From positions 637,009 to 701,008 of the forward strand of contig OZ246402.1 in assembly GCA_965230975.1 (NCBI GenBank): a stretch of 64,000 nucleotides of DNA. The letters are read 5' to 3'. Under the pieces are notes generated by a model that had not been told where the DNA came from, did no database searches, and worked only from the letters and a program-made list of their open reading frames with translations. Below, one piece after another: positions 5,008 through 25,132 of this stretch. A program made the translations under genes and the position numbers. The stretch comes from an uncultured Candidatus Saccharibacteria bacterium (lineage in GTDB: Bacteria > Patescibacteriota > Dojkabacteria > J137). How positions within the stretch are numbered: position 1 is the stretch's first letter; every line of letters starts with the position of its first letter.

Positions 5008-5066
5008 ATTTAGGAATTTATGTATATGCCTTGGATTATAACTCCACTAGATGATTTAAGACTAAT

Positions 5067-6098: not shown

Positions 6099-6260
6099 TC
6101 TTTCTTCTTCATCTTTTTTAAAGTCATTAACTTCTACATCCTTATAACTACATGAAGTACATTTTATTGTAGTAGTAACTATATCACCCTTTCGTTTATA
6201 ACTATGTTTAACTTCTGACTTACATTTTGGACAAAGATCGGGCTCATGTACCCATTCTGT

Positions 6261-7331: not shown

Positions 7332-7554
7332 AAATAATTATATCACTATAATATACATTCAATCAATACTATTGACTTATTGACGAATCCGTAACATTTA
7401 CCTATTGTTTTTAGTTATGGATTATTTTATAATCTTTTCAATCTGAGGGCAAATAAAAAGCCCCACGCAAAGCATGAGGCAGTTTAGACAACTCCATTAT
7501 GAATTAAAATTCCAGGCTTTGCAAGATAAAAATTTTATTTATTAGGATATTTAT

Positions 7555-7734
7555 ATGTTCTATTTTGAGCTATACCTGGACAGAATAAATCAATGGAGAT
7601 GGAGGATCAAAAGTAGCGGTAATTATAAAACATTGGCTGATAGTGGAGAAAGTTATTACAACAAAGCTGATGCTATATATGCTATTAATTTGATAAAAAA
7701 CAATGCATTCTCTGCAATAATAATTGGTACATGA
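7555..7734 (+). CDS. DUF1508 (YegP/UPF0339) domain protein, 59 aa. It is not in the ORF track
   Basis: FELYLDRINQWRWRIKSSGNYKTLADSGESYYNKADAIYAINLIKNNA matches the YegP-repeat consensus (FEvykdk.g.wRfrLkA.NGeiia.Se.Y.sk..a.ngI.svk.NA). A rho-independent terminator follows. Confidence 0.6.
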   Translation: MFYFELYLDRINQWRWRIKSSGNYKTLADSGESYYNKADAIYAINLIKNNAFSAIIIGT

Positions 7735-7739
7735 CTACA

Positions 7740-7764
7740 GGAGCTCGATATAGAGCTCCTTTTT
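7740..7764 (+). terminator. Rho-independent terminator
   Basis: A perfect 7-bp stem GGAGCTC / GAGCTCC with a 6-nt loop, followed by TTTTT, directly after the DUF1508 ORF. Confidence 0.65.
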
Positions 7765-7779
7765 AATTTTTATAAGTAA

Positions 7780-8322
7780 TTGATGAAGACAATAGAACAA
7801 ACAATAAATATTGCGGGTATAATTTTTACAATAAAGGACGTGATCCTAATAATCCCCTTCTTATTGACAGTCGTTGGCGCTATATATTTAGCAATTAAAA
7901 CGAATATTAGATTCTCACAAAATCTAAAGCGTCCGGTTCTTTTTTTAAGTTTAGACACTGATAAAACCTGTGACTTAACTTTAGAAAAGGAAATAATCAA
8001 AAAAGCAAAATTTAAGATGACGTATGAGGCAGTACAAAATATTAGGAAATTTGAAAGTGGTGAACTTCAGGAATACTCCTGTTTAATTATTGGTTTTCAA
8101 AAAGATAAAAGTAGTTTTGAAGAACTAATTAAGGTCCTTTCACTAGTAAAATCAAATCAAAACATCCCCGTAATTATATATACTTTTGGAACAACTGCAT
8201 TTACTCCTGACCAATACAATAAAATATACGAAACCTATTCATTATATTCGATGGCAAATGTCCCGCTTAGGCTCATATCCGATTTATTTAATATTTTAGC
8301 AATTTATCCCAATGGAAAATAA
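7780..8322 (+). CDS. Small membrane protein with 1-2 N-terminal TM segments and a C-terminal alpha/beta domain
   Basis: Hydrophobic segments IAGIIFTI and VILIIPFLLTVVGAIYLAI lie within the first 40 aa. The stop overlaps the start of the next gene by 11 nt. Confidence 0.45.
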   Translation: MMKTIEQTINIAGIIFTIKDVILIIPFLLTVVGAIYLAIKTNIRFSQNLKRPVLFLSLDTDKTCDLTLEKEIIKKAKFKMTYEAVQNIRKFESGELQEYSCLIIGFQKDKSSFEELIKVLSLVKSNQNIPVIIYTFGTTAFTPDQYNKIYETYSLYSMANVPLRLISDLFNILAIYPNGK

Positions 8323-9400
8323 AACAAAGACAAATTTTAGTGAATATATCTCTGGAAAAATAACACCTAAGGAAAAAGAAAGGTCAATAATTTCTGAGCT
8401 TTACACAGAGCTATCAACAATTCTTGCTGACCAATGTTTTCAGACTGGGTCATACGCTAGATTTACTGCAAACACACCAGTGCACGACCTAGATGTTATT
8501 TGGAAATTACCTTCGGAAACTGCTCAAAGAATAAGGACTATGATGGCAAGGGCAATTAATCCTAATGATGTTGATGTTAAGGATATTCTAAACGAACTAA
8601 GAAATAAACTTGAAAGAGAGTATAAAACTTTAAATCGACAGGTTTCATTTGGAGTTCAATCACATTCCGTTACGTTAGATTTCCAAATTCCAATAGAGAA
8701 CGGAGAAATATTTGACATATCTATTGATGTTGTTCCAGGAATAATATTACCTGAGAATGACAAATTTAATGAACCTCTTTTTCTCGTTCCTGAAATAGCG
8801 CTGATGTCCAGATATAAAAGATTGATGAAGTATGAGAGGAAGGATCCCATAAATTGGATTAAATCAGATCCAAAAGGCTACATTGAATATGCCAGGCATA
8901 TGAATAATGAAAATGAACTATTTAGAAAATGTACCAAATTTCTAAAGTCTTGGAAAAACAAACAAAAGTATCTATTTGAAGATTTTAAATTAAAATCTTT
9001 TCATATAGAACTAATTGTGGCGGACTTAATTAGTAAAAAATCACACCAACTTGGTATAGACGTTTTGAAAGAATTCTTTTTAAAATTGCCAGAGTTTTTA
9101 AAGACGCCTCAATTTGTAGATTTTGCATATGAAAATGATAGTTCAAAGTATGTTGACGAATATATTGAAGATGTTCCAGAAAATGTTAAAAATTATATTT
9201 TAGCTAAGAGCCAAGAGGCTTGGGCTAAGATATCGGTGATTCATAGTGATAATGATACCAACATAGGCAGTATCTTTGATGAGATAACTCAAGTAGATGA
9301 GCAAAGTATCGAACCACAAGTAAAGATTAAATCAAATATTCCATATAAGCCATATTCTATTAATAATGAAGATAACCGAACAAGACTTACTTTACCTTAA
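8312..9400 (+). CDS. Pol-beta-superfamily nucleotidyltransferase (cGAS/DncV-like CD-NTase or SMODS-like)
   Basis: QTGSYARFTANTPVHDLDVIW fits the GS-x9-13-hDhD motif. A third acidic residue sits on a downstream strand (FDISIDVVPG). The 362-aa length and C-terminal helical region fit the family. Confidence 0.55.
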   Translation: MENKTKTNFSEYISGKITPKEKERSIISELYTELSTILADQCFQTGSYARFTANTPVHDLDVIWKLPSETAQRIRTMMARAINPNDVDVKDILNELRNKLEREYKTLNRQVSFGVQSHSVTLDFQIPIENGEIFDISIDVVPGIILPENDKFNEPLFLVPEIALMSRYKRLMKYERKDPINWIKSDPKGYIEYARHMNNENELFRKCTKFLKSWKNKQKYLFEDFKLKSFHIELIVADLISKKSHQLGIDVLKEFFLKLPEFLKTPQFVDFAYENDSSKYVDEYIEDVPENVKNYILAKSQEAWAKISVIHSDNDTNIGSIFDEITQVDEQSIEPQVKIKSNIPYKPYSINNEDNRTRLTLP

Positions 9401-10094
9401 GAACAATCAGCCAGAACTAAAGTTTACCCCACCAAACGTGATTCGTGGCAGGTTAAACTTTACAATGGAATATAATGCCAGTAAATTTCCTGGCTACAAA
9501 ATCTTCCATTTCAATGAAAACTTGGTGGAATCAGAATATTTGATTAAAGACAGTTATAATATTGAGATAAATACTGATGGTGATCTCTATGGATTGCCCG
9601 TATGTTTTTGTGTAGATAAACAAATAAATCAACAATATGAAGATCTTAAAGATAGTCCTAACCTAAAAGTTAATTGCATAAATGATCTTCACCTTAACCA
9701 AGATGCAGACTGCACTTTCTGTCTAGGATTTCCAATGGATTTTATAGATAGAAATTTGGCTAATTTGAGTCTTGAAGATTATCTTGAGGATTTTGTAGTA
9801 CCCTTTCTATATTATCAGACCTATATCTTCCGAAATCGTAAAGAACCTTGGCGTAGTTATGGTCACGGTCCTTTAATAGGACTTGGGGAATATTTTTACG
9901 AAATACGAAACGAAAAATCTAAAGCCAACGAGTCAGTAAAAAGAATTACTCCAACATTCAGAGAAAGGATTAAAGGTGTCAACATCATTTATAGTGAAAA
10001 TTGTATTTGCGGGTCTGGAAGGAAGTGGAGAGATTGCCATTTCAGAGCCGCAATGGGTTTGAAATTTATTAGGAGAATTTTATTAAGAGGTTAG
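9366..10094 (+). CDS. Hypothetical protein with a C-terminal SEC-C-like metal-binding motif
   Basis: The C-terminal CICGSGRKWRDCH resembles the SEC-C motif CPCGSGKKYKxCC. The gene overlaps the NTase gene by 35 nt, consistent with an operon. Confidence 0.45.
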   Translation: MKITEQDLLYLKNNQPELKFTPPNVIRGRLNFTMEYNASKFPGYKIFHFNENLVESEYLIKDSYNIEINTDGDLYGLPVCFCVDKQINQQYEDLKDSPNLKVNCINDLHLNQDADCTFCLGFPMDFIDRNLANLSLEDYLEDFVVPFLYYQTYIFRNRKEPWRSYGHGPLIGLGEYFYEIRNEKSKANESVKRITPTFRERIKGVNIIYSENCICGSGRKWRDCHFRAAMGLKFIRRILLRG

Positions 10095-10192
10095 CTTTAT
10101 ATTGCATAGCTTTCTATATCAATTGCTTAGCCATTCACACAGTTTTGTAATATAATCATTTCATAATACAATCAAGCATCTATAATAGTTTA

Positions 10193-13100
10193 ATGCTTAA
10201 TCAACAAAATATGAACAATGATTTAACATTCATTACAAATGAAGTAGGTAAATCCCTGCTTGATAGATTTAATACATTGATACCGAACTATACAAAAGAA
10301 TTCGACACTATAGTTGGGTACTTTTTTATTAGTGGATTTCATAAGATATATAGATCATTGGAAAACGTTGATAAAGTTAGGGTATTAGTTGGCTTATCTG
10401 TAGACAAAAAAGTTGCAGACCTAGTTACTTCAGACAGTTTACAAGCTAGATTTGACCTTGAATCCACGAAACAAATAAAAAGTGATATTGTAAGGAAAAT
10501 TCAAGATGAGGTTGCTGACTCAGAAGATACAAAAGAAGTTGAAGAGGGTATTAGAAAATTTGTGGAATGGTTAAAGAGTGGTAAGTTAGAAGTAAAGATA
10601 TATACTAAATCACCTCTTCATGCAAAAGTATATATTCTTACTTTTCAGGAAGGCGACAGAGATCCAGGAATGGTGATTACTGGCTCAAGTAATTTAACTG
10701 CAGGTGGTTTGGATGGTAACTTAGAGTTTAATGTTCAATTGCGAGATCCACGTGACTATTCCTATGCACTTGAGAAGTTTGAGCAACTTTGGGCTGAATC
10801 TGTAGAAATCACAGATCAATATATAACTACAGTTGAGCAGAAAACTCATATCTCTGATTCTATTACTCCTTACGAATTATACTTGAAATTTCTATATGAA
10901 TATTTCAAGAATGATTTAAACTATGAAAATGATGATGAGGATACACTACCAGAGGGCTATTTGGATCTAGATTATCAAAGACAAGCTGTTATAAATGCAA
11001 AAAGAATATTGGAGGAATATGGTGGTGTGTTTATTGCTGATGTAGTTGGACTTGGTAAAACTTTTATTACTTCAAGATTAGTTAAAGCACTAAATCAAAA
11101 AACATTAGTTATAGCTCCACCAGCGCTACTAGATGAGAATAATCCAGGTTCCTGGTTCAATGTATTTGATGAATTCGGGATTAGACATCGAAAATTTGAA
11201 TCAATTGGAAAGTTAGATCATATTCTTGCAATGGGCATACATGAGAATGTGGAAGTTGTAGTAATAGATGAATCCCATAGATTTAGAAATCAATCTACAG
11301 AAACGTATAATAAATTGGCTGAAATTTGCAAAGGGAAAAAAGTCATATTGGTTAGTGCAACGCCGTTTAACAATACTCCAAGTGATCTATTGTCTCAAAT
11401 TAAATTATTTCAGAATTCTAGAAAAAGTAGTATACCGAACCTCTCTGATCTAGATAATTTCTTCTCAAGGTTGAATGGTAAACTAAAGGGTCTAGATAGG
11501 AAGAGAGATTATGAAGAATATATGTCTACAGTAAAGGATAATGCTAAAGAAATAAGGGAAAAAATTTTGAAGTATTTGATGGTTAGAAGAACAAGAAGTG
11601 AAATTAGAAAATACTACGAAACTGATTTGTCCAAACAAAAATTAAGATTCCCTGATGTGATCGAACCAACCCCAGTATTTTACGAATTTAATGATCTCGA
11701 AGACAGAGCATTTCAAGAAACTATGGATTTTATTAAAGTCTTTAAATATAGTCGATATACTCCAATGCTCTACTATAAGGGAACAATTACTGAACAAGAG
11801 AAGCAAGGTCAAAGAAATTTAACTACTTTTATGAAGATGTTACTTGTAAAAAGATTTGAAAGTAGCATATATGCTTTTAAGAAAACTTTAGAAAGGTTTA
11901 TACATTCGTATGAGCTAATGATAGAAGAATATGGGAAAGGCAATGTTTATGTTAGTAATAAAAATGCAAACAAGTTATTCGAACTACTTTCAGAGCAAGA
12001 TGAAGATGGCTTATTAGATTTAATAAGTGGTGGCAAGGCAGAGGTATATAAATCTATAGACTTTAGAGACGAAATCTTGCTTGATATGAAATTTGACTTG
12101 AATATTCTAAAACAAGTATCTGCCAGCTGGGAAAACGTAAAACGTGATGTAAAACTTGAGAGGTTTTTAAATATACTTGAGTCTGATAAGGTTTTAAACC
12201 GAAATAAATTATTAATATTCACTGAATCACAGGAAACTGCTGATTATTTATCAGATAAAATTGGAGAAAAGTACCCTAACTCGGTTTTAAATTATACTGG
12301 AGCATCTTCTATTTCAAAAAGGTTTGAAGTGATTACTAATTTTGATGCAAAGTCAAAAGTACAAGAAGATACATATAGAATACTAGTTACAACTGATGTC
12401 TTGGCTGAGGGTGTTAATTTACATAGATCTAACTGTGTAATTAATTACGATATTCCATGGAACCCGACAAGAATGATTCAAAGAGTGGGTAGAATAAATA
12501 GAGTTGATACTAAATTCAAAGAAATTTATACTTACAATTTCTTCCCGACATCACAAGCAAATGATGAATTAAAATTAAAGGAATCGGCTGAAGCTAAAAT
12601 TAATATGTTTATTGAGTTACTAGGTAATGATGCAAGACTGTTAACTGATGGAGAGGAGATTAAGTCACATGACTTATTTAACAAATTGCTTTCAAAAGAA
12701 ACTTTAACTGGAGAGGACGAGAGTTTTGAAAGTGAATTAAAATACCTACAAGTAATACAGTCCATTAGAGACACAGATGTGGACTTATTTTCTAAGATAA
12801 AGGTCCTACCTAAAAAAGCACGTACAGGTAAAGTTTCCAAAGCAAACGAAATCGCACTAGTTTCCTATTTCCAAAAAGGAAATATTGATAAGTTCATACT
12901 CACAGCTGGCAATCTAACGAGTGAACTTGGTTTTTTTGATGCAGTAAAACTTATTGAATCTGAGGCGGACGTAAAGTCAAAAAAAATCTCTGAGGATTAT
13001 TACGAATATTTAAGCAAGAACAAGAATCTGTTTGATGAGTTAATAAATCAAAATATAGATGAAACTATTATCAAAAGAGGTGGTGATTCTGCTCAAAAAC

Positions 13101-13396
13101 TTGTTAAAAGATTAGGAATTTTGCTTAAGGGTATGAATAATTTAACAGAAGATCAAGACGAATATTTGAACAAGGTTATGGATAAAGCCGAAGAAGGAGC
13201 ACTATCGCGTGGAGTTGCAAAAAAATTATGGGATCTAATTAACTCTAGCGATATAGGATTAGATTCACAAAAAGTGTACTTTTCGATAAAAAAGAATTTA
13301 TCAGATAACTGGCTGAAAGATACCTTCACCGAATCAAGCCATATATCGGAAGGGAAAAGAGAAGTAATATTGTCTCAAATGATATTTCCAAATTAA
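10193..13396 (+). CDS. PLD-family nuclease fused to an SNF2-family helicase
   Basis: N-terminal HKD motif LHAKVYILTF...GSSNLTAGG. SNF2 motifs: I ADVVGLGKTFIT, II VVVIDESHRFRN, III LVSATPFNN, VI VINYDIPWNPTRMIQRVGRINR. Confidence 0.8.
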   Translation: MLNQQNMNNDLTFITNEVGKSLLDRFNTLIPNYTKEFDTIVGYFFISGFHKIYRSLENVDKVRVLVGLSVDKKVADLVTSDSLQARFDLESTKQIKSDIVRKIQDEVADSEDTKEVEEGIRKFVEWLKSGKLEVKIYTKSPLHAKVYILTFQEGDRDPGMVITGSSNLTAGGLDGNLEFNVQLRDPRDYSYALEKFEQLWAESVEITDQYITTVEQKTHISDSITPYELYLKFLYEYFKNDLNYENDDEDTLPEGYLDLDYQRQAVINAKRILEEYGGVFIADVVGLGKTFITSRLVKALNQKTLVIAPPALLDENNPGSWFNVFDEFGIRHRKFESIGKLDHILAMGIHENVEVVVIDESHRFRNQSTETYNKLAEICKGKKVILVSATPFNNTPSDLLSQIKLFQNSRKSSIPNLSDLDNFFSRLNGKLKGLDRKRDYEEYMSTVKDNAKEIREKILKYLMVRRTRSEIRKYYETDLSKQKLRFPDVIEPTPVFYEFNDLEDRAFQETMDFIKVFKYSRYTPMLYYKGTITEQEKQGQRNLTTFMKMLLVKRFESSIYAFKKTLERFIHSYELMIEEYGKGNVYVSNKNANKLFELLSEQDEDGLLDLISGGKAEVYKSIDFRDEILLDMKFDLNILKQVSASWENVKRDVKLERFLNILESDKVLNRNKLLIFTESQETADYLSDKIGEKYPNSVLNYTGASSISKRFEVITNFDAKSKVQEDTYRILVTTDVLAEGVNLHRSNCVINYDIPWNPTRMIQRVGRINRVDTKFKEIYTYNFFPTSQANDELKLKESAEAKINMFIELLGNDARLLTDGEEIKSHDLFNKLLSKETLTGEDESFESELKYLQVIQSIRDTDVDLFSKIKVLPKKARTGKVSKANEIALVSYFQKGNIDKFILTAGNLTSELGFFDAVKLIESEADVKSKKISEDYYEYLSKNKNLFDELINQNIDETIIKRGGDSAQKLVKRLGILLKGMNNLTEDQDEYLNKVMDKAEEGALSRGVAKKLWDLINSSDIGLDSQKVYFSIKKNLSDNWLKDTFTESSHISEGKREVILSQMIFPN

Positions 13397-16300
13397 TGAA
13401 TACTCAAGCCAAACTCAAAGTTAAAACACTGTTTGAAAATAGATTTAATAAGGAAAAGTTCGTCTCATTTATTGCTGACTTGCTTAATGAAGTTGAAAAT
13501 GACACCTCCTTCCCTCCACTAAGGGGAAGATATATTAAAGCACCATTTCAAAATGGAATTCATGAATATGAGAGGGTTTGTAAATATATAGATTCATTAG
13601 GAAACCAGATAGATGTACTTATAGTTAAATTGAAAGACAAAAGTAAATTAGAAAATGCAAGGACTTTTCAAAGGAACTTCGTTGTTGACTATCTTAATGG
13701 TGGGCGAGGAGGAAAACTTAAAGATGGTGCATTAGTTGCTTTTTATTCCGATGATATTTCAGATTGGAGATTTTCTTTTGTAAAGCTGGAATATGAACTT
13801 AAAGAAGAAAACGGAAAAATAAAAGAGAACAAAAAAATGAATTCAGCTAAGCGATACTCATTCCTTGTTGGTGAGAATGAAAATTCGCACACGGCTCAAA
13901 GCCAGTTACTACCTCTGCTCGAAGATGATATTAATAACCCTACTTTAAAACAAATTGAAGATGTGTTCGGAGTTGAGATAGTAACTAAAGAGTTTTTTGA
14001 AAAATATAAAGAGCTCTTTTTACAAGTTAACAACCATCTCGAAGAAATTGTAAGAAAAGATACCAATGTAAAAAATGATTTTGAAAGTAAAGAAATTAGT
14101 ATAGGTGACTTTGCTAAGAAATTATTAGGTCAAATAGTGTTCCTATACTTTTTACAAAAAAAAGGATGGTTCGGTGTTCCCATGACCAAAAAATGGGGAG
14201 AAGGAGATAGAAGATTTTTAAGAAGTATTTTTGAAAAATCTAATAAAGAGAGTAAGAACTTTTTTAATGATTATCTGGAACCTCTATTTTATGAGGCGTT
14301 AGCCAAAGAAAGAGATGGTAATTACTATAGTAGATTCGAGTGTAAAATTCCTTTTTTGAATGGAGGATTATTTGACCCTATCGGTGATTATGATTGGTGG
14401 AATACTGTTATCAATTTGCCAAATGATCTCTTTTCAAATAACTATATTTCCCAAGATAAACATAAAGATATAGGTACGGGAATCTTGGATGTTTTTGATA
14501 GATACAACTTCACAGTTAGGGAAGATGAACCTCTTGAAAAAGAAGTAGCAATCGATCCTGAAATGCTCGGCAAGGTATTCGAGAATATGCTTGAAGTAAA
14601 AGATCGAAAATCGAAAGGTACATATTATACTCCTCGAGAAATTGTTCACTATATGTGCCAGGAAAGTTTAATAAATTATCTAGAGAGTAATTTAAGTACG
14701 GTTAGTAGAGATGATCTAGTTTACCTTGTAAAAAAAGCCGAGTACGATAAGGAAAAAGAGCAAGCTGGGGTTGAGGGTATAAAAGTTTATGAAATCAACT
14801 CAAAATTTCCGGAGGATATTAAGATTTATTCAAATGAAATTGATCAGTTGCTTGCGGATATTAAAGTATGTGACCCAGCAATTGGTTCTGGTGCATTCCC
14901 AGTTGGTATGATGAATGAAATTGTAAAAGTCAGGTCTATCTTAACAGAATTCTTGCCAAACAATAGTAATCGTAGTGAGTATGAATTTAAAAGACATGCT
15001 ATAGCGAATTCTATACATGGAGTTGATATAGATCAAGGTGCAGTTGAAATTGCGAAACTTAGACTTTGGCTCTCTCTTATTGTTGATGAAGACGATATTA
15101 GCAACATAAAGCCCTTACCAAATCTTGATTATAAAATTATGCAGGGTAATAGTCTTATTGAGGAATTTGAAGGAATAAAACTATTTGATGATAGCCTATT
15201 AAACAATGATGATTCCTATAAACATGAAATTATGAAGCTGAAGGATAGACAGCACGTTCTTCAAAAAGAATACTTTGAAATTTACCATGATAATACAAAG
15301 AAAAGTGAAACAGATCAGATTAACAAGGAATTAGAATTGATTAAAAAGAAGCTAATTGATCTTAATAAACCTCAGAAAGTAAACGATGGCGAAATTGATC
15401 TATTTAAGACTAGAGATGAAGCCAAAGAGAAAGCTGATCAGTTACAAGTATTACAAAAGAAGTTTTTTGAAGCATCACAAAAGTCTGAAAAGGAAAGAAT
15501 TAAGCAACAAATTGATGATTTGATATGGGATTTGATTGAGACTACAGTTAGACATGAAGGTAGTAGCGATAAATTGGCCCATATACAAAAAATTAGAAGG
15601 TCTAATAATAAACCCTTCTTTTTATGGAAATTGAATTTTGCTGATGTGTTTAAAGAAAAAGGAGGTTTTGATGTTGTAATTGCAAATCCACCGTATGTAA
15701 AAGAATATACGCAAAAAGATGCATTTGATGGATTGAGAAAATCACCATATTATAAAGGGAAAATGGATCTGTGGTACTTTTTTGCTTGTTTTGGAATAGA
15801 TATTCTTCATGAAGGGGGAATACTTACATTAATTGCACAAAATAACTGGGTTACAAGTTATGGAGCTTCGAAGATGAGAGATAAAATAATTACTGAAACA
15901 CAAATATTAACACTAATCGATTTTGGAAATTACATGATTTTTGACACTGCTGATATCCAAACTATGGTTATGATTTTCAGTAAAGTAAAGCCATTGGGAA
16001 ACTATCATTTCAACCTAAGAAGAATAGTAGGAAAGCCTCACAGCCCCTCAATAATTAATGACTTACTTGAGGAGAAGAAGGCTGAGAATATAGAAATATT
16101 ACATCCCAATATTAAGCCGGATTCATTAATCAATAAAAGTTTCTCATTCAATAATGTTCAATCTAATAAACTACTAAATAAGTTGACTAAGGACTCCATA
16201 TTTCTTAATGGTGATAAAGAAATTGCTCAAGGTATTGTGCCTAATCCAGATGTAGTAAATAGTAGAAATATAAAAAAGATACCTGAATCAATGGTCCGAA

Positions 16301-17055: not shown

Positions 17056-17069
17056 ATGTTTTCATAATT

Positions 17070-17774: not shown

Positions 17775-17841
17775 CAACCGAACCTTACCGAACACCACTT
17801 TCTGCAACAATACAATAAATTATTTATTATTTTATTGTTGT

Positions 17842-19167
17842 ATGGAAGAAAAACTTCAAACAGTTTATGTAAACATAAACGACCTCGTTAATGCTGATTA
17901 CAATCCTAGAAAATGGGATGAAAAGGCTCTCTCGGACTTAAAGGAAAGCATAAAGCGCTTCGGATTAGTTGATCCTGCAATCGTGAACATTGCCGAGAAC
18001 AGAAAGAATATAGTCATTGGTGGTCATATGCGTATTGAAGCAGCAAAAGCCCTGGGGGTTACTGAGATGCCAGTAATCTATCTAAATATCCCAAACGTCG
18101 AAAAAGAAAAAGAACTTAATATAAGGCTCAATAAGAATCATGGAGAATTCGATTTTGAACTTCTTGCAAATTTCGCCGAAGATTTTCTTACAGATATTGG
18201 CTTTAATTCAGAAGAACTAGATTCTATTTTCGATTGGGACGATGAAACCCCAGAAATATTTGATTTAGAGAAAGAGCTTGAAAAGTTAAATATCAAAAAC
18301 ATTGAGATTCAAAAGGGTGATGTATGGCAATTAGGTGAAAGCAGATTAATGTGTGGTGATTCTACAGTTAATGAAGATATGCATAAGCTTTTAAACAATG
18401 AGAAAGCTGACATGTGCTTTACTGATCCACCTTACATTCTTGATTATCTTCACGGTAAGAAAAAGAATGGTAAAGCAACAGAAGGATTTGGTGCTAAAAG
18501 AAATCGTAAATATCTAGAAACAGACATTCTTCCTGACAACTTCACTGAACTTTGGATGAAAAATATCTCAGAAGTTTCCAAAGATAATTTCCACATAATC
18601 GTTTATGAAAACTGGAAAAACATTAGAACAATATGGGGTGAAATGGAAAAGTATTGGAAAGTTAAAAACATGATTGTCTGGCATCTACCAAATCGTAATC
18701 AAGGCTTTGCCCCGAAATATAAATTCTTTTCGAAACATGATATTGCAATGGTCGGTTCAACCGAAGATAAAGAAGAATTGGATTTAAATCCTGAGGATGA
18801 ACTTTTGCAAAATGAGTATGAAACTGCTTTATATGCAATATCAGGTAAGCCTCAATGGGAAGGTTATGAAAAGGGAAAGACGATACAACCAACTGATTTT
18901 ATTGAATATAAAGCCTCTGATGAAAAAAGTTCGGGGCAAGGAATAATATTTGGAACGAAACCATTAGAAATCCTAATTCCCTACATCAAAGTACTTACTA
19001 AACGTGGAGATCTAATTGTTGAGCCTTTTGGAGGAAGCGGATCAACATTGATCGCTTCAACGAAAATGAAAAGAAGATGTTATCTAATGGAGAAATCTCC
19101 AGTTTATGCCGAAGTAATCAAAAATCGTTGGGAGAAATTAACTGGTGAGAAAGGAGTAAAGATATGA
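17842..19167 (+). CDS. ParB-like nuclease domain fused to an N6/N4 DNA methyltransferase (DPPY class)
   Basis: N-terminal ParB/Srx signature YNPRKW...GLVDPAIVN...GGHMRIEAAKALG. Methyltransferase motif IV MCFTDPPY. C-terminal SAM motif EPFGGSGST. Confidence 0.75.
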   Translation: MEEKLQTVYVNINDLVNADYNPRKWDEKALSDLKESIKRFGLVDPAIVNIAENRKNIVIGGHMRIEAAKALGVTEMPVIYLNIPNVEKEKELNIRLNKNHGEFDFELLANFAEDFLTDIGFNSEELDSIFDWDDETPEIFDLEKELEKLNIKNIEIQKGDVWQLGESRLMCGDSTVNEDMHKLLNNEKADMCFTDPPYILDYLHGKKKNGKATEGFGAKRNRKYLETDILPDNFTELWMKNISEVSKDNFHIIVYENWKNIRTIWGEMEKYWKVKNMIVWHLPNRNQGFAPKYKFFSKHDIAMVGSTEDKEELDLNPEDELLQNEYETALYAISGKPQWEGYEKGKTIQPTDFIEYKASDEKSSGQGIIFGTKPLEILIPYIKVLTKRGDLIVEPFGGSGSTLIASTKMKRRCYLMEKSPVYAEVIKNRWEKLTGEKGVKI

Positions 19168-19565
19168 AAAATCTAAAAAAAGAACTAATTGAACAACTAC
19201 GAAAAACTCCGATTATAGAAGTTGCTTGTAAGAAAGTTGGAATTGGTAGAGCGACCTTTTATAGATGGAAGAAAAGAGATGGCAAATTTGCTGATGAAGC
19301 AGAATCAGCAATTCTTGAAGGATCACAAGTTGTAAATGATATGGCTGAAAGTCAGTTAATTAATTCTATCAAGAACGGAAATTTAACTGGAATTATTTTT
19401 TGGCTTAAGAATCATCATAAACAATACTCACCTAAACTTGAAGTAACAACAAAAAGTGCAGATCTACCACTAACAGAAGAACAAAAGGAAGTTATTCGAA
19501 AGTCATTAAGTATGGCTTTTAATTTATCTATTAATGATACAAACGATGAACATGAAACAAATTAA
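19164..19565 (+). CDS. HTH protein, candidate terminase small subunit
   Basis: HTH KKVGIGRATFYRWKK. Its position immediately upstream of the terminase large subunit overlaps it, in the typical TerS-TerL arrangement. Confidence 0.4.
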   Translation: MKNLKKELIEQLRKTPIIEVACKKVGIGRATFYRWKKRDGKFADEAESAILEGSQVVNDMAESQLINSIKNGNLTGIIFWLKNHHKQYSPKLEVTTKSADLPLTEEQKEVIRKSLSMAFNLSINDTNDEHETN

Positions 19566-21084
19566 TAAGGATTTTGAAATACCAATGGAAATAATTGAAA
19601 AGATTTTAGTTGATAAAAGAGCGAGAAAAGAACTTACTCGAGAAAGTCATTACTGGTTCTTTCATCTTTACTTTAGTGAGTATGTTAAATATCCAACAGC
19701 AGATTTTCAAAGAGAAATGTTTAGCATCACAGAAGATGATGAAGTAAAAATGGCAGTTCTAATTGCTTTCAGAGGTTCCGCTAAGTCAACAATAATGACA
19801 ATGTCGTATCCTCTCTGGGCGATTTTAGGAAAGCAACAAAAGAAATGTGTTGTAATAATTTCTCAAACTCAACAACAAGTCAGAACTCACTTTGCAAATT
19901 TAAAAAGAGAACTAGAAAATAATGAAGTATTAAGAAACGACTTAGGTTCATTGGAGGAAGAATCTGATGAATGGGGATCGTATTCTTTAGTTCTACCTAA
20001 ATTCAATGCAAGACTTATTGCAGCATCAAGTGAACAAAGTATCAGAGGAATTAGGCATGGAGCAAATAGACCTGATTTAATTATTTGCGATGATGTTGAA
20101 GATTTAACTACTATAAAAACAAAGGAAGGCAGAGATAAAACATATTCTTGGCTATCTGGAGAAGTTATTCCGCTAGGGGATCAGAATACAAAGATAATAA
20201 TGATTGGAAATCTTCTGCACGAGGATTCTCTGTTAATGAGACTTAAAAAGAAAATCACGGAGGAAAATATGAATGCTATCTTCAGAGAATATCCTTTAGT
20301 TGATGATCAAAATAATATTCTTTGGTTAAGTAAGTTTAAAGATATAGATGCAATCAATGATTATAAAAAGATAATCGGGGATGATAAAGCTTGGCAAAGA
20401 GAATATATGCTTAAAATTATTCCAGAAGATGATCAATTAGTTTATCAAGAATGGATTCAGTATTACAATGAACTCCCAAAGAGTACTCAAGATTATAGAT
20501 ACACTATTATAGGTGTCGATTTAGCAATTTCAACAAGTGCTTCGGCTGACTATACTGCTATGGTTACAGCACATGTATTTGGAAATCTTGAAAACTTAAA
20601 AGTCTATATACTTCCTTTCCCTTTTAACAAAAGAGTTGAATTCACTACAATAACTGAAGTTATAAAACAAAAAGGAAAAGAACAACATTATGGAAGAAGA
20701 CCTGATATCTATATAGAAGAGGTGGGATTCCAAACAGCAGTAATTCATCAGTTAAAAAACCAAGGACTAAATACTAAAGGATTTAAAGTTCATGGACAAG
20801 ATAAAAGATCGAGATTAAATTCTGTAACTCCATTTATAAAGTTAGGACGAGTATTATTTCCCCAAAAAGGAGCTGAAGAACTAATTCAACAATTAGTCTA
20901 CTTCGGAGTGGAAAAGCATGATGATTTAGTGGATGCATTTTCCATGGTTCTTTTAAAAGTTGCGGAAAAGGATAGACCGGGAATTCAAGTCATAACAGGT
21001 GAAGCGGCTGCACTTTTGAGAGGTGGCGGTGGAAGCTGGTATGGCGGTGATTATTGGAGTTCAGGAAGTAGTCGATCGTTTTAA
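19534..21084 (+). CDS. Phage terminase large subunit
   Basis: Walker A-like AFRGSAKST, Walker B LIICDDVED and a C-terminal nuclease region. The tail is an unusual Gly-rich RGGGGSWYGGDYWSSGSS. Confidence 0.65.
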   Translation: MIQTMNMKQINKDFEIPMEIIEKILVDKRARKELTRESHYWFFHLYFSEYVKYPTADFQREMFSITEDDEVKMAVLIAFRGSAKSTIMTMSYPLWAILGKQQKKCVVIISQTQQQVRTHFANLKRELENNEVLRNDLGSLEEESDEWGSYSLVLPKFNARLIAASSEQSIRGIRHGANRPDLIICDDVEDLTTIKTKEGRDKTYSWLSGEVIPLGDQNTKIIMIGNLLHEDSLLMRLKKKITEENMNAIFREYPLVDDQNNILWLSKFKDIDAINDYKKIIGDDKAWQREYMLKIIPEDDQLVYQEWIQYYNELPKSTQDYRYTIIGVDLAISTSASADYTAMVTAHVFGNLENLKVYILPFPFNKRVEFTTITEVIKQKGKEQHYGRRPDIYIEEVGFQTAVIHQLKNQGLNTKGFKVHGQDKRSRLNSVTPFIKLGRVLFPQKGAEELIQQLVYFGVEKHDDLVDAFSMVLLKVAEKDRPGIQVITGEAAALLRGGGGSWYGGDYWSSGSSRSF

Positions 21085-21126
21085 AATCTCCTAGACTTAA
21101 TAAGAGAACAGCGGTACTGTCTTGGT

Positions 21127-22443
21127 GTGAAAACACTGAATCAACCAATACGGTACTGCTTATACGCTAGAAAATCATCTGAATCAGATGAGAAGCAGGC
21201 AATGAGCATAGATGGTCAACTGATGGAAATGAGAGAACTTGCAAAAAGGGAAAAGATCGAAATAATAGAAGTTATTACAGAAAGCCATTCAGCCAAAGAA
21301 ACAGGACAAAGATCTCAATTTAATTATATGGTTGAGAGCATTTCTAAAGGAAAATATAACGCAATAATTACTTGGGCTCCAGATAGAATTTCAAGAAATG
21401 CAGGCGATCTGGGACGAGTTGTTGACTTAATGGATCAAGGAAAATTACTTTTTATAAAGACTCACTCTCAGACTTTCAGTAATAACCCAAATGAAAAGTT
21501 TTTGCTTATGATTTTGTGTTCTCAAGCAAAGCTCGAAAACGATAATCGAGGTATTAATGTTAAGAGAGGCTTGAGGAATAAATGTGGTATTGGAATTCGA
21601 CCTGGAATGGCTCCAATTGGTTACTTAAATACAATGAGAGGAAATAGGATTGCTTCTGTAGACTTAGATCCTGAGCGAGCTCCTATAATTAAAGAAATGT
21701 TTTACAAGGTTGCAAACCAAGGATATTCCGGAAGGATGATTAAAAAGTGGCTTGATAAACAAAACTTTAAAACTAAGAAAGGATATTCAATAAGTCTAGG
21801 TAGAATTTATGTTGCTCTTAATAACCCATTTTATTATGGAGAATTCCGCTACGGAAAGAAATGGTATAAGGGAACTCATGAACCATTAATTACAAAGTAC
21901 ATTTTTGATAAAGCACAGATTCAATTGGAAGTAGTTCCGAAACAATGGAACAAACAAGTCTTCCCATTTAAAAAGATTTGTAAATGCGGAACTTGTGGTG
22001 GAAGTATAACTGCTGAAATTAAATATCGTAGAACGAAAGCAGGTAAGATAAACACCCACATTTATTATCACTGCAATAGAATTAGAGATTACGAATGCAA
22101 GGAGCCATATATTACAGAAGAAGAATTGATCAAACAATTAATAATTTTGCTACCCAATCTTAAATTGAATACTAAATATTTATGGATGGAATTTGATGAG
22201 GAGATTAAAAGACTAAATCATTTAAAAGGTATTATTTATAATCAACAAGAAGCAAGCATACAACTTACACCACATAATCTTAATAAGTTGAAATCAGAAG
22301 ATTTAAGTCCCGAAGAATATCTAATGCTACAAAGTTATTTACTGCACATTCTTCAATTTGGAACTCCTGAAGAGAGACTAAGGATTCTGACTGGAATTCA
22401 ATCTAAATTTGAATTAACTCAAAGAGTGTTGGTAGCAAAGTAA
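21127..22443 (+). CDS. Large serine recombinase (integrase)
   Basis: N-terminal resolvase domain YARKSS...DRISR with the catalytic Ser in RKSS. C-terminal zinc ribbon CKCGTCGG...YYHCNRIRDYEC. Length is 438 aa. Confidence 0.8.
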   Translation: MKTLNQPIRYCLYARKSSESDEKQAMSIDGQLMEMRELAKREKIEIIEVITESHSAKETGQRSQFNYMVESISKGKYNAIITWAPDRISRNAGDLGRVVDLMDQGKLLFIKTHSQTFSNNPNEKFLLMILCSQAKLENDNRGINVKRGLRNKCGIGIRPGMAPIGYLNTMRGNRIASVDLDPERAPIIKEMFYKVANQGYSGRMIKKWLDKQNFKTKKGYSISLGRIYVALNNPFYYGEFRYGKKWYKGTHEPLITKYIFDKAQIQLEVVPKQWNKQVFPFKKICKCGTCGGSITAEIKYRRTKAGKINTHIYYHCNRIRDYECKEPYITEEELIKQLIILLPNLKLNTKYLWMEFDEEIKRLNHLKGIIYNQQEASIQLTPHNLNKLKSEDLSPEEYLMLQSYLLHILQFGTPEERLRILTGIQSKFELTQRVLVAK

Positions 22444-22469
22444 ATTAATTCCCTTTAATTATAATTCTA

Positions 22470-23216
22470 TTGTATCAATTGGTTAGATACTGCTATTCTC
22501 TGACTATGAAATATATAGTTGTATCAATGACATCCACAAGACCAGACAAATATGGGACTGCTTTTTCGAAAGAAGCACTTTTTGATGGAGCTAAACAAAT
22601 AAATATAAAATACCTACCGGTAAATATAGAGCATGATCGTTCCAATGTTATAGGTGTGGTTTTATATGCAGAGGTCCATGAATTACTAGATGGCGAATGG
22701 TTTCTAATGAATGTTTCTGGACTATTTGAGGAAAACGATGATAAAGAATTATTTAAGGCTGGATTGTCAAATATCGAGAGCTCAAATCCAAAATACCCTA
22801 AGCTAATTGCAGATGAGCTAGAGAACTTTAGGTTACATTTAAAAACCGTGCCTATAACTAAATACAAAATACCTAATACTCTTGAAGGTCAAATTGAACA
22901 GTATCTAGACAGGACAAAAGTCGATGAAAACGGGAATGTCTATGAAATCCGTGCATTTATTGATTCGGTAGGCGATCTAAAAATAGAGATCTATCCTAAT
23001 GATCACAACCCACCACATTTTCATATCACATCAAGGCAAAGAGGCATTAATGCAAGGTTTAATTTAACTACACTTAAATTTATTGACAATAAGAAAGGAA
23101 GTCGCGGTAGATTAACTTCCAACGATATTAAAAAGTTGGAAAGTTTTTTTGAGATGCATCCTCAAGCCCAAGAAGAACTTAGGAAAAGGTATGAAGATTT
23201 TAATCAAAACAACTGA
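22470..23216 (+). CDS. DUF4160-containing protein
   Basis: C-terminal IYPNDHNPPHFHI is the DUF4160 signature. The N-terminal half is unassigned. The true start is possibly at 22506. Confidence 0.45.
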   Translation: MYQLVRYCYSLTMKYIVVSMTSTRPDKYGTAFSKEALFDGAKQINIKYLPVNIEHDRSNVIGVVLYAEVHELLDGEWFLMNVSGLFEENDDKELFKAGLSNIESSNPKYPKLIADELENFRLHLKTVPITKYKIPNTLEGQIEQYLDRTKVDENGNVYEIRAFIDSVGDLKIEIYPNDHNPPHFHITSRQRGINARFNLTTLKFIDNKKGSRGRLTSNDIKKLESFFEMHPQAQEELRKRYEDFNQNN

Positions 23217-23524
23217 ATAGAGAACAACATTCGGACCTAAAGTATCATTCCTGAATAATCAATACTCACAACAAAAAAGCTTAGAACCAGAGAGGTATGT
23301 TTAAAAGCCTAATATGGCTATTTTCAGGCTAAAACAACGATTTTGAGACATTTACGAATTATTGGAAGCCAATGTACAACACCATTCAACGCTACCAAGG
23401 TAGGTAGACGGGTCTTGCGAAACCATTTTAAAATGGCGGGGGCGACGATATTCTCACTAAAGTTTTTAAGTCTATATAAATGCCAATGGGTAAATAATTC
23501 CATTGGCATTTAAGATTAAGTTTA

Positions 23525-23776
23525 TCAGGAATTTCTTCTAGTTCTTTCAACTTTTCCTAAAATCAATTTCATCATATCTTCTCTGTCAGCTGCTAAAGAA
23601 TCGTCACTCATTTGTTCCTCAGTATAGATTCTTTCAAGGACTTTTGAAGCAACAGCCTCATTACTTAAAGTTGGCTCTTCTTGAAGAACATTCTTAATTT
23701 CAGTTCTTATTGACTCATTTATTGTTGCACCAATACTTCTTAGTCCATGTTCAATCACATTATCTAGACCATCCAT
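23525..23776 (-). CDS. Hypothetical small protein
   Basis: An 83-aa ORF between the island cargo and tRNA-Ser. No motif. Confidence 0.25.
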   Translation of the reverse strand: MDGLDNVIEHGLRSIGATINESIRTEIKNVLQEEPTLSNEAVASKVLERIYTEEQMSDDSLAADREDMMKLILGKVERTRRNS

Positions 23777-24066
23777 AAATATTATACTAATAAATAATAC
23801 TTAGATTAAACATTAAATCTTGAGCTTTTGCAACTCAATCATTTTATATTGGTTAAAATTTACAAAGTTTAAAAATAATTAGTTTTAATCGTGAACACCC
23901 ACAATAAAAAATATTAGAACCAAAAGATATTAAACTTAAGCCAAAATCAGAGGTATTCAGTAAAAAAGTAGGTATTTTAAGAAAATGAAATTCTTGGACA
24001 AAATTCGACAAGACTGTTAATGCTTTGACACCATAGTACCCAGGTCTTGTAGGATACTATAGGATA

Positions 24067-24157
24067 TGGCGGAGGAGACAGGATTCGAACCTGCGTCCCA
24101 GTTGCCCGGGAACAGTCTTTCCAGGACTGCGCACTAGACCAACTATGCGACTCCTCC
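24067..24157 (-). tRNA. tRNA-Ser (anticodon GGA), with a long variable arm and CCA encoded
   Basis: The minus strand reads GGAGGAGUCGCAUAGUUGGUCUAGUGCGCAGUCCUGGAAAGACUG...GGUUCGAAUCCUGUCUCCUCCGCCA. The anticodon loop is CUGGAAA, the T-loop is GGUUCGAAUCC, and the acceptor stem is 7 bp. Confidence 0.85.
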
Positions 24158-24233
24158 TTGAATACTCAAATGTGCTTGTAATTTTAACAGATATTTAGCA
24201 TAATTCGCACAAAAATATAATAGTAGCAAAGCA

Positions 24234-25043: not shown

Positions 25044-25132
25044 TAACACATTAAAAACTTTCTAAAATACACAAACCTCTTTTAACTTGACTAATAAATG
25101 TATATAATCTGACACCTATTATTAGTAACAAA

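What the first reader, a model, noticed from the sequence alone, without database searches (positions are those of the whole stretch)
7400..24160. Accessory island of about 16.5 kb flanked by tRNA-Ser(GGA), with a serine integrase, terminase genes, methylases and defence cargo
From about 7.5 kb to the tRNA-Ser at 24067-24157 essentially all genes are on the plus strand. They encode mobile or defence functions: the NTase cassette, a PLD-SNF2 helicase, a giant methyltransferase, a ParB-methyltransferase, TerS and TerL, a large serine recombinase and DUF4160. Housekeeping genes (uvrA, mfd) resume after the tRNA. tRNA genes are classic integration sites. The element has terminase genes and an integrase but no capsid or tail genes, which suggests a phage satellite (PICI-like) or a decayed prophage that has been retained as a defence island.
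Basis: inference. Interest (0 to 1): 0.7.

Follow-up and report, generated by a model that had tools for sequence, protein, structure and literature searches.

The report
Terminase-carrying integrative defence island, virion-less
This is a mobile island from a widespread, apparently undescribed family in ultra-small (probably CPR/Patescibacteria) bacteria that keeps only a phage's DNA-packaging enzymes, a methylase and a serine integrase, sits at tRNA genes and carries swappable anti-phage defence genes, so it most likely spreads by hijacking the capsids of a helper phage.

Summary
The island belongs to a large recurrent family seen in over 160 fetched loci. Its core is a DNA methyltransferase, TerS, TerL and a large serine recombinase (LSR). 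There are no portal, capsid or tail genes, the defence cargo varies, and a tRNA gene lies just past the LSR with its 3' end facing it. The core TerL forms one clade, sister to real phages that do carry portal and capsid genes, and the core genes are under strong purifying selection, so this is not a decayed prophage.

In the window the element ends at 23439, not at the tRNA. A 620-bp miniature element of the same family (23447-24066) lies between it and tRNA-Ser(GGA), flanked by an imperfect 13-bp repeat of the tRNA terminus. Close relatives join the same right end directly to tRNA-Ser GGA, GCT or CGA. The left end is unresolved, but it probably includes the S24 repressor and a split unknown gene, back to about 5067.

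The most likely mechanism, which is inferred, is a phage satellite that packages itself into a helper phage's capsids. It is not a PICI, cfPICI, PLE or P4-like element. I found no prior description.

The parts
5067..6692 (-). u541 family gene, split here into 343-aa (5067-6098) and 143-aa (6261-6692) ORFs. It is probably the terminal gene at the end of the element far from the recombinase. Function unknown.
   Evidence: 86-90% nt identity to L084 4204-5846 and L253 814-2432, with unrelated DNA beyond the stop codon. Family members sit at the LSR-distal end in about 15 loci. No Pfam or PHROGs hit.
6705..7331 (-). S24 (LexA/CI-like) self-cleaving repressor, transcribed divergently from the plus-strand block. 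Likely the induction switch.
   Evidence: Peptidase_S24 E=6e-18 and phrog_4 transcriptional repressor. GDSM...K motif present. Homologues lie next to, or divergent from, the methylase-TerS-TerL operon in 10 or more other loci.
7555..7734 (+). Small DUF1508 (YegP-like) ORF, first gene of the plus-strand block.
   Evidence: PF07411 E=1.2e-7.
7780..10094 (+). CBASS-like cargo: TM effector (7780-8322), CD-NTase/SMODS cyclase (8312-9400) and E2-like protein (9366-10094).
   Evidence: PADLOC: TM effector 3e-12, Cyclase PDLC00785 7e-60, E2 PDLC00872 7e-20. Pfam SMODS.
10193..17055 (+). Cargo pair: HKD(PLD)-SNF2 helicase (10193-13396) and Eco57I/type IIG-like methyltransferase (13396-17055), with overlapping stop and start codons.
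   Evidence: Pfam PLDc_2, SNF2-rel_dom, Helicase_C; Eco57I, N6_Mtase, TaqI_C. PADLOC HKD+Snf2 3e-52; REase_MTase_IIG 2e-215. The same pair occurs in other slots and orientations in L087, L090, L091, L097, L106, L134, L139, L175 and L213.
17070..17774 (+). u234, a subclade-specific unknown protein directly upstream of the methylase.
   Evidence: Homologues at the same position in L083, L087, L091-L100 and L251-L253. 41 cluster representatives among 1.8 billion proteins. No fold or function obtained.
17842..19167 (+). Core: ParB-N-terminal domain fused to an N6/N4 DNA methyltransferase.
   Evidence: PF02195 + PF01555; phrog_498 8e-83. A methyltransferase precedes TerS in 64 of 65 loci.
19164..19565 (+). 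Core: small terminase subunit (TerS).
   Evidence: phrog_309, phrog_4102 and others. Present in 75 loci. dN/dS 0.04 against L084.
19534..21084 (+). Core: large terminase subunit (TerL), with ATPase and nuclease motifs intact.
   Evidence: phrog_38 2e-82 and Terminase_6C. Walker A FRGSAKST, Walker B LIICDDVED, and GVDLA and HDD nuclease motifs invariant in alignment A2. dN/dS 0.05-0.09.
21127..22443 (+). Core: large serine recombinase (integrase).
   Evidence: Resolvase + Recombinase + Zn_ribbon_recom; phrog_95 integrase 2e-56. YARKSS catalytic serine motif. Present in 31 of 34 loci with enough flank.
22470..23216 (+). Variable post-recombinase slot, here a DUF4160-domain protein.
   Evidence: PF13711 1.5e-6. 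Relatives carry unrelated genes in this slot.
23224..23433 (+). Conserved non-coding right-end block. It ends in the recombinase-arm motif GGTAGACGGGTCTTG (23403-23417), about 24 nt before the junction.
   Evidence: 69-89% identical in L084, L251, L252 and L253, always ending at TGGCGG. GGTC lies 15-36 nt before the tRNA end in 17 of 29 junctions, against a 3% background.
23434..23446 (+). Imperfect copy (TGGCGGGGGCGAC, 11/13) of the 3'-terminal 13 nt of tRNA-Ser. This is the junction between the main element and the mini-element.
   Evidence: All relatives diverge from one another immediately after TGGCGG.
23447..24066 (.). Miniature element of the same family: left arm GATATTCTCAC..., right arm ...CCCAGGTCTTGTAGGATACTATAGGATA, and only 83-aa (23525-23776, minus) and 61-aa ORFs.
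   Evidence: Absent in L253, where the right-end block abuts tRNA-Ser(GGA) directly. Both arms recur at L252 16856-16913.
24067..24157 (-). tRNA-Ser(GGA), the integration target. Its 3'-terminal 13 nt (24067-24079, TGGCGGAGGAGAC) form the second copy of the repeat.
   Evidence: ARAGORN and Rfam. 89% identical to the L253 tRNA that directly abuts a related element.

Best explanation
The region from about 5067 (or at least 6705) to 23439 is one copy of a recurrent integrative mobile element. The host is a small-genome bacterium, probably from the CPR/Patescibacteria.

**Core and cargo.** The invariant core is a DNA methyltransferase, TerS, TerL and a large serine recombinase. Everything else is swappable cargo, mostly anti-phage systems. 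In this copy the cargo is a CBASS-like trio plus an HKD-SNF2 helicase paired with a type IIG-like methyltransferase.

**Shown.**
- The recombinase end of the element is joined to the last bases (CCGCCA-3') of tRNA genes, mostly tRNA-Ser.
- Elements can stack in tandem at that site, as in the window, where a 620-bp mini-element sits between the main element and tRNA-Ser(GGA).

**Inferred.**
- The element is kept silent by its S24 (LexA/CI-like) repressor.
- On DNA damage or phage infection the repressor cleaves itself and the long plus-strand block is expressed.
- The recombinase excises the element.
- The element's own TerS and TerL recognise and cut its DNA and pump it into procapsids made by a helper phage. 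That helper would belong to the related phage lineage whose TerL is 37-45% identical and which does encode portal and capsid.
- The fixed methyltransferase either licenses cutting at the packaging site or protects the transferred DNA.

While resident, the element pays its way through its defence cargo. Functionally this is a phage satellite that carries a defence island.
For: **Recurrence.**
- TerL has more than 3,300 relatives, and the source names that exist say Patescibacteria or Dojkabacteria.
- In the loci fetched from metagenomes and genomes, a methyltransferase precedes TerS in 64 of 65 and an LSR is present in 31 of 34 with enough flank. The IMG/VR loci show the same layout.
- Clustering shows that only these four families recur widely.

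**No virion genes.**
- 144 ORFs downstream of TerL show no recurrent portal, capsid or tail family. They show R-M, nuclease, TIR and MADS components instead.
- The same scan finds portal (1e-103 to 1e-120) and major capsid genes right after TerL in the distant phage-type contigs.

**Separate lineage.** All 77 LSR-context TerLs fall in one clade of 129 leaves, and 15 of 16 phage-context TerLs lie outside it.

**Function retained.** dN/dS is 0.04-0.09 and catalytic motifs are intact.

**tRNA targeting.**
- 28 of 47 assessable LSRs have a tRNA within 3 kb past the stop codon, and all 28 are convergent.
- The same right-end block abuts tRNA-Ser GCT (L085), GGA (L253) and CGA (L252) at the same TGGCGG.

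**Recent rearrangement at the junction.** L084 and L085 are 99.96% identical up to that base and then differ, and contig L086 ends there.

**Cargo swapping.** The backbone is 80-90% identical between the window, L084, L251 and L253, but the cargo differs.

**Repressor.** An S24 gene lies next to the operon in 10 or more loci.
Against: - No excised circle or empty site was recovered.
- The left junction of the main element was not found, so this particular copy could be immobilised.
- No replication gene and no excision factor were identified.
- No known satellite carries TerL without a portal, and a TerL must dock on a compatible portal. The helper relationship is therefore pure inference.
- The host assignment rests on weak evidence: UvrA is only 61% identical to a Saccharibacteria MAG, and the rest comes from source names of TerL relatives.
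- dS is saturated in the more distant comparisons.
Confidence: 0.55

Rival explanations
1. The methylase-TerS-TerL module is itself an anti-phage device rather than a transfer device. The terminase would mis-cut or mis-package the DNA of an infecting related phage, and the methylase would mark self DNA. The island would then spread by other routes, such as natural transformation or conjugation followed by LSR integration.
For: - The methyltransferase is always coupled to the terminase (64/65), as in restriction-modification logic.
- The module always sits among defence genes.
- No replication module was found.
- Interference with helper packaging is a known satellite activity (general knowledge of SaPI/PICI biology).
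Against: - ParB-methylase upstream of TerS-TerL is also the arrangement in the related true phages (L224, L226, L228 and L235). The coupling is therefore inherited from phage packaging modules rather than being a defence innovation.
- Interference and self-transfer are not mutually exclusive.
Confidence: 0.2
2. A decayed prophage whose remaining genes are retained as a defence island.
For: - Terminase genes without structural genes, next to a tRNA.
- u541 is split in the window.
- The left att site was not found.
Against: - The same minimal set recurs in over 100 independent loci with different flanks and cargo.
- Strong purifying selection and intact motifs.
- The TerL clade is distinct from phage TerLs.
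- There are no virion gene fragments anywhere.
Confidence: 0.07
3. A driver of generalised or lateral transduction. The element stays integrated, its terminase starts headful packaging from a site in the element, and it exports neighbouring chromosomal DNA in helper capsids (GTA-like benefit to the host).
For: - No replication or excision factor was identified.
- TerL is most similar to headful-packaging Mu-like phage terminases, at 25-29% identity.
- The block is unidirectional and points towards the tRNA and host genes.
Against: - A conserved, selected integrase with precise tRNA junctions, and the same element at three different tRNA-Ser genes, show that the element itself moves.
Confidence: 0.1

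Closest known systems
PICI / SaPI-type phage-inducible chromosomal islands
   Same: Integrated island of about 10-18 kb. It has a divergent repressor, its own TerS, no virion genes, accessory (including defence) cargo and a fixed chromosomal target site. Transfer by hijacking a helper phage's capsids is presumed.
   Different: Serine rather than tyrosine integrase. It encodes TerL as well as TerS. No primase/replicase-ori module, capsid-size remodelling genes or Ppi-type interference genes were found. It has an obligatory methyltransferase. The host is probably a CPR bacterium.
Capsid-forming PICIs (cfPICI)
   Same: Satellites that carry both TerS and TerL.
   Different: cfPICIs also encode capsid, portal, protease and head-tail connector proteins. 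None of these occurs here.
PLE of Vibrio cholerae
   Same: Anti-phage island integrated and excised by a large serine recombinase (PMC6002521).
   Different: As far as I know, PLEs have no terminase genes. They integrate into Vibrio cholerae repeats rather than tRNA genes. No sequence relationship was tested.
SCC/SCCmec cassettes (Ccr large serine recombinases)
   Same: LSR-driven insertion at the 3' end of a conserved housekeeping gene, leaving it intact. Short direct repeats. Tandem arrays that include recombinase-less cassettes. Defence genes as cargo (PMC11470126).
   Different: The target is rlmH rather than a tRNA. SCC cassettes have no terminase genes.
Tycheposons (Prochlorococcus)
   Same: tRNA-targeting integrative elements with cargo. 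Some are PICI-like and carry a packaging gene. A minority use large serine recombinases (bioRxiv 10.1101/2020.12.28.424599).
   Different: Tycheposons mostly use tyrosine recombinases, carry replication modules, and have terS or a capsid gene but no TerL. The PICI-like ones carry no cargo.

Membership tests
PICI | Tyrosine-type integrase at one end | tested here: not met
   The integrase is a large serine recombinase (Resolvase + Recombinase + Zn ribbon).
PICI | Primase/replicase plus origin module | tested here: not met
   No primase, helicase-replicase or Rep domain in any element ORF, and none recurs in the family. The unknowns u234 and u541 cannot be excluded.
PICI | Own TerS and absence of virion and lysis genes | tested here: met
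   TerS at 19164-19565. No virion genes.
PICI | Induction by, and packaging into capsids of, a helper phage | not testable with these tools
   Needs experiments or particle-associated reads.
cfPICI | Own capsid, portal, protease and connector genes together with TerS and TerL | tested here: not met
   TerS and TerL are present, but there is no portal or capsid in the window or in 144 neighbouring ORFs across loci. The positive control worked on phage-type contigs.
Intact or decayed prophage | Virion structural and lysis genes, or recognisable fragments of them, within the att-bounded unit | tested here: not met
   None found. Core genes are under purifying selection.
Large-serine-recombinase integrative element | LSR with catalytic serine, recombinase domain and zinc ribbon, next to one end of the element | tested here: met
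   The LSR lies 1 kb from the mapped right end at 23439.
Large-serine-recombinase integrative element | Defined att junctions at both ends, and occupied versus empty sites | tested here: inconclusive
   The right junction is mapped to the base and shared by relatives at three tRNA-Ser genes. The left junction and an empty site were not found.
CBASS (cargo) | CD-NTase cyclase plus effector, with an optional E1/E2/JAB accessory protein | tested here: met
   Cyclase 7e-60, TM effector 3e-12, E2 7e-20 in PADLOC; SMODS in Pfam. Activity was not tested.
DISARM / BREX (considered for the helicase-methylase pair) | DISARM needs DrmA, DrmB (DUF1998) and DrmC. BREX needs BrxC and PglZ. | tested here: not met
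   Only partial hits to DrmD, DrmMI and PglX, weaker than the hits to HKD+Snf2 and type IIG models. There are no DrmA/B or PglZ/BrxC genes in the island.
LOOT RNA (Rfam RF03000), in relatives only | Match to the covariance model above the gathering score | tested here: not met
   Met in L253 (61.2 bits) and L251 (54.5 bits) against a 46.4-bit cut-off. The window has no match.

The most novel reading that the evidence does not exclude
This is the first recognised family of phage satellites in CPR/Patescibacteria, and a new satellite architecture: only the packaging enzymes (TerS and TerL) plus a methyltransferase, moved by a tRNA-targeting large serine recombinase. It would be a major vehicle for exchanging defence systems among these ultra-small bacteria, and the orphan LOOT RNA would be one of its components.
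Probability: 0.4. Interest if true: 0.85.

Novelty: new variant of a known kind. Interest (0 to 1): 0.74.

Why it matters
Little is known about how CPR/Patescibacteria exchange genes or resist phages. They have tiny genomes, and CRISPR is rare among them (PMC6509639).

A very common, compact element that combines a phage packaging motor, a serine integrase and interchangeable defence systems would explain how immunity genes move through these lineages. It would also add a new design to the catalogue of phage satellites, namely TerL without portal or capsid.

It gives a concrete genomic context to the orphan LOOT RNA. It provides natural tRNA-specific large serine recombinases with mapped junctions, which are of interest as genome-engineering tools. 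It also points to the phage lineage (TerL 37-45% identical, portal-MuF fusion) that could be the helper.

Tried and rejected
- **Composition:** GC content and skews give no boundary.
- **Annotated collections:** megablast of the island against annotated phages and plasmids found nothing.
- **Empty site:**
  - The exact-protein look-up found only the same organism.
  - The right-flank 269-aa protein is an orphan with a single 99% hit.
  - The UvrA-anchored genome scan found no relative above 61%.
- **u234 function:**
  - The AlphaFold model is unusable, with mean pLDDT 42.
  - The PDB profile search found nothing.
  - My guess of an OmpR/PhoB winged helix was rejected by hhalign, at probability below 1%.
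- **u541:** no Pfam or PHROGs hit, and no conserved DNA lies beyond it.
- **ATTCTCAC motif in L109:** it is part of a terminator hairpin, a coincidence. The motif is real only as the left arm of the mini-elements in the window and L252.
- **Far-left att copy:** the search gave hits at chance level only.
- **Right-arm sequences in IMG/VR:** the 17 hits to the 15-mer are all chance matches, and the 24-mer had none.
- **Apparent virion hits in L144 and L219:** these are trivial 97-aa and 159-aa partial matches.


Full report
**1. The observation**

The window has a flat GC content of about 0.31, so composition marks no island. tRNA-Ser(GGA) is at 24067-24157 on the minus strand. Between 7555 and 23216 all substantial ORFs are on the plus strand.

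- A CBASS-like trio: TM effector 7780-8322, CD-NTase 8312-9400 and E2-like 9366-10094.
- An HKD(PLD)-SNF2 helicase, 10193-13396.
- A 1219-aa Eco57I/type IIG-like methyltransferase, 13396-17055.
- An unknown 234-aa protein, u234.
- A ParB-N6/N4 methyltransferase, 17842-19167.
- TerS, 19164-19565.
- TerL, 19534-21084.
- A large serine recombinase (LSR), 21127-22443.
- A DUF4160 protein.

UvrA and an Mfd-like protein follow the tRNA. Immediately to the left, on the minus strand, lies an S24 LexA/CI-like repressor (6705-7331).

**2. It is one member of a large family**

The island has no match in annotated phages or plasmids. TerL, however, has more than 3,300 relatives at E<1e-20. Those with names are labelled Patescibacteria or Dojkabacteria. 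Many lie on long chromosomal contigs, including a 1.19 Mb record that carries the identical protein.

I fetched about 170 loci through TerL: from exact-protein look-ups, one metagenome scan and IMG/VR. Their gene order is very uniform:
- A methyltransferase precedes TerS in 64 of 65 loci, either ParB-fused or with a second methyltransferase alongside.
- An LSR is present in 31 of 34 loci with enough flanking DNA. It lies directly after TerL, after inserted cargo, or divergently upstream.

Every other family occurs in 12 loci or fewer.

**3. No virion genes, and not decay**

I pooled 144 ORFs lying within 4.5 kb downstream of TerL. No portal, capsid, tail or connector family recurs among them. 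The recurrent families are type I R-M subunits, nucleases, ThsB-TIR, methyltransferases and MADS components.

The test can detect virion genes. In contigs whose TerL is only 37-45% identical to the window's, the genes right after TerL are portal (phrog_2662, E=1e-103 to 1e-120), protease/scaffold and major head protein.

A neighbour-joining tree of 150 TerLs puts all 77 LSR-context sequences in one clade of 129 leaves. Fifteen of the 16 phage-context sequences lie outside it. The two apparent exceptions are trivial partial hits.

Between the window and relatives, dN/dS is 0.04-0.09 for TerS, TerL and LSR. The catalytic motifs of TerL, the LSR and the S24 protease are intact; dS is saturated for the distant pairs. 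The nearest TerLs in sequenced phages are only 25-29% identical, and several of those are Mu-like phages.

The element lineage therefore descends from, or is sister to, a phage lineage. It has kept only the packaging enzymes, and these remain under selection.

**4. Integration site and the true right end**

Of 47 LSRs that could be assessed, 28 have a tRNA gene within 3 kb past their stop codon. All 28 tRNAs are convergent with the LSR, so the tRNA 3' end faces the element. Seventeen are tRNA-Ser with four different anticodons. The rest are Gln, Asn, Tyr, Trp, Glu, Asp and Arg.

In the window's own subfamily, a conserved non-coding right-end block of about 215 bp (window 23224-23433) ends in ...GGTAGACGGGTCTTGCGAAACCATTTTAAAA, followed by TGGCGG. 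That hexamer is the reverse complement of the tRNA's CCGCCA-3' end. The same block runs directly into three different intact tRNAs:
- tRNA-Ser(GCT) in L085.
- tRNA-Ser(GGA) in L253. This tRNA is 89% identical to the window's.
- tRNA-Ser(CGA) in L252.

L084 and L085 are 99.96% identical over 13.6 kb up to exactly that point and then differ, and contig L086 ends there. That indicates recent recombination at the junction.

A GGTC-containing motif lies 15-36 nt before the tRNA end in 17 of 29 junctions, against a 3% background. The junctions are not fully independent. The motif is a plausible recombinase-binding arm.

**5. The 627-bp wedge**

In the window the right-end block stops at 23439, which is 627 bp short of the tRNA. 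The intervening DNA begins TGGCGGGGGCGAC-GATATTCTCAC. It ends ...CCCAGGTCTTGTAGGATACTATAGGATA, directly against the tRNA's TGGCGGAGGAGAC.

L252 has an internal site that reads ...GGGTCTTGTAGGATACTATAGGATA-TGGCGGAGGAGAC-GATATTCTCAC....

So 23447-24066 is a miniature element with both family-type arms. It is flanked by an imperfect 13-bp direct repeat of the tRNA terminus (23434-23446 and 24067-24079) and carries only 83-aa and 61-aa ORFs. The simplest history is that a second element inserted at the already occupied tRNA site. It was later reduced, or it is a non-autonomous cassette.

This resembles the tandem arrays of SCC cassettes made by Ccr serine recombinases at rlmH (PMC11470126).

**6. 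The left end**

Homology with L084 and L253 covers a gene I call u541 (window 5074-6692, 86-90% nt identity). It is intact at 541 aa in L084 and split in the window and in L253. Homology stops at its stop codon, and the DNA beyond it differs between genomes.

u541 relatives sit at the LSR-distal end, reading outward, in about 15 loci. S24 repressor genes accompany the operon in 10 or more loci. I therefore place the left end at about 5008-5073.

This boundary is not proven:
- No repeat of the tRNA terminus and no left-arm signature occurs there.
- No conserved DNA lies beyond u541.
- In L084 and L253 the u541 gene sits next to the same tRNA-synthetase gene at 91% identity. In that lineage u541 could therefore be host DNA.

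**7. Cargo is modular**

The backbone is 77-90% identical among the window, L084, L251, L252 and L253, but the cargo differs:
- The window: CBASS-like trio plus the HKD-SNF2/type IIG pair.
- L084: HamA plus a helicase-methylase fusion.
- L251 and L253: DUF2779, SNF2 or Cas3-like helicase, BrxC/D-like and TerB-domain proteins.
- L083: type I R-M plus an OLD nuclease.
- L252: almost no cargo.

One breakpoint lies inside the methyltransferase gene. The HKD-SNF2/type IIG pair occupies different slots in different elements.

**8. Mechanism**

*Shown:* a recurrent, selected, virion-less element with a serine integrase; precise tRNA-end junctions; tandem stacking; and cargo exchange.

*Inferred:* control by the S24 repressor, excision, and packaging of the element's own DNA by its TerS and TerL into capsids of a helper phage from the related portal-encoding lineage. 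For the methyltransferase, one possible role is licensing cleavage of the packaging site, by analogy with adenine-methylation-dependent pac cleavage in phage P1, which I recall from memory. The other is protecting the DNA in the next host.

*Against:* no circle junction, empty site, replication gene or excision factor was found. No known satellite has a TerL without a portal.

The rival explanations are an anti-phage role for the methylase-terminase module, lateral transduction, and a decayed prophage. The last is largely refuted. They are weighed in the rival section.

**9. Comparison with known systems, and novelty**

The element works most like a PICI-type satellite, but it fails PICI membership. 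It has a serine integrase, a TerL and no replication module. It also differs from the other candidates:
- cfPICIs, because it has no capsid genes.
- PLEs, which as far as I know have no terminase and which use a different target.
- Tycheposons, which mostly use tyrosine integrases, carry replication modules and have no TerL (bioRxiv 10.1101/2020.12.28.424599).

Its integration behaviour resembles SCC cassettes.

Full-text searches for combinations of Patescibacteria/CPR/Saccharibacteria with terminase, serine recombinase, satellite, integrase or defence terms found no description of such an element. I checked two relevant CPR papers directly, and neither mentions it. I rate it a new variant of a known kind, namely a satellite-like integrative defence island. 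The caveat is that the literature library is incomplete.

**10. Side finding**

In the closest relatives (L251-L253) a structured RNA heads the operon. It shows compensatory base changes and matches Rfam's orphan LOOT RNA above the gathering score.

A covariance model built from these three copies finds 24 more copies. All are in LSR-clade loci and none is in a phage-type contig. Several lie directly downstream of the LSR. The window itself has none.

Noticed in passing
L253 9145-9283, L251 6712-6855, L252 9015-9162; 24 further loci (e.g. L108 5618-5762, L109 1881-2035, L147 1443-1585, L175 1278-1428, L084 16326-16488): The orphan Rfam motif LOOT RNA (RF03000) is a recurrent component of this element family. 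It appears at the head of the operon or just after the recombinase, with compensatory base changes. It is absent from phage-type contigs and from the window.
   Followed up: partly
window 23447-24066: A 620-bp miniature element with family-type left and right arms, flanked by a 13-bp imperfect repeat of the tRNA-Ser terminus. It could be a deleted relic or a non-autonomous cassette mobilised in trans.
   Followed up: yes
L217, L224, L226, L228-L231, L233-L236, L241, L242, L248 (IMG/VR): True phages whose TerL is 37-45% identical to the window's. They have a ParB-methylase upstream and a ~700-aa portal fused to a MuF-like head-morphogenesis domain, then protease and major capsid genes. They are candidate helpers or ancestors of the element lineage.
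   Followed up: partly
L084 6824-9622 versus window 17842-19167: L084 has a 932-aa helicase-methyltransferase fusion next to a Hachiman HamA gene. It shares only its C-terminal 216 aa (89%) with the window's ParB-methyltransferase, so a cargo-exchange breakpoint lies inside the methylase gene (about window 18529).
   Followed up: partly
L254 7119-7404 versus L253 16240: Otherwise 99.96% identical strains differ by a 285-bp insert with a GIY-YIG ORF (86 aa) between tRNA-Ser(GGA) and tRNA-Cys. It looks like a homing-endonuclease insertion.
   Followed up: no
IMG/VR contigs 3300033402_000781 (L181/L184), 3300014205_009253 (L197/L208), 3300032737_000190 (L178/L211): Single contigs carry two separate copies of the methylase-TerS-TerL-LSR module, so one genome can hold several elements. 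That would allow homologous recombination between copies and flank shuffling.
   Followed up: no
window 10193-17055; L087 11662-18257; L090 11718-18206: The HKD-SNF2 helicase plus Eco57I/type IIG-like methyltransferase pair recurs in nine or more elements in different slots and orientations. It matches PADLOC's 'HKD+Snf2' model better than its DISARM or BREX components. It may be a distinct two-gene restriction-like system.
   Followed up: partly
loci L093, L100 and others (downstream-of-TerL ORFs in alignment A3): Components of the MADS methylation-associated defence system (mad2, mad5) appear as cargo in 5-7 loci, and ThsB-TIR proteins in 2.
   Followed up: no
window 5067-6692 and L253 807-2432: The u541 gene is split into two ORFs at the same place in the window (343 + 143 aa) and in L253 (343 + 166 aa), but is a single 541-aa ORF in L084 and L251. 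This could be a shared frameshift or a real two-gene form.
   Followed up: no
window 24234-25657: Two ORFs (269 and 174 aa) between tRNA-Ser and uvrA have no Pfam or PADLOC hit. The 269-aa protein has only one near-identical relative among 5.8 billion protein clusters, so it is a lineage-specific orphan.
   Followed up: partly
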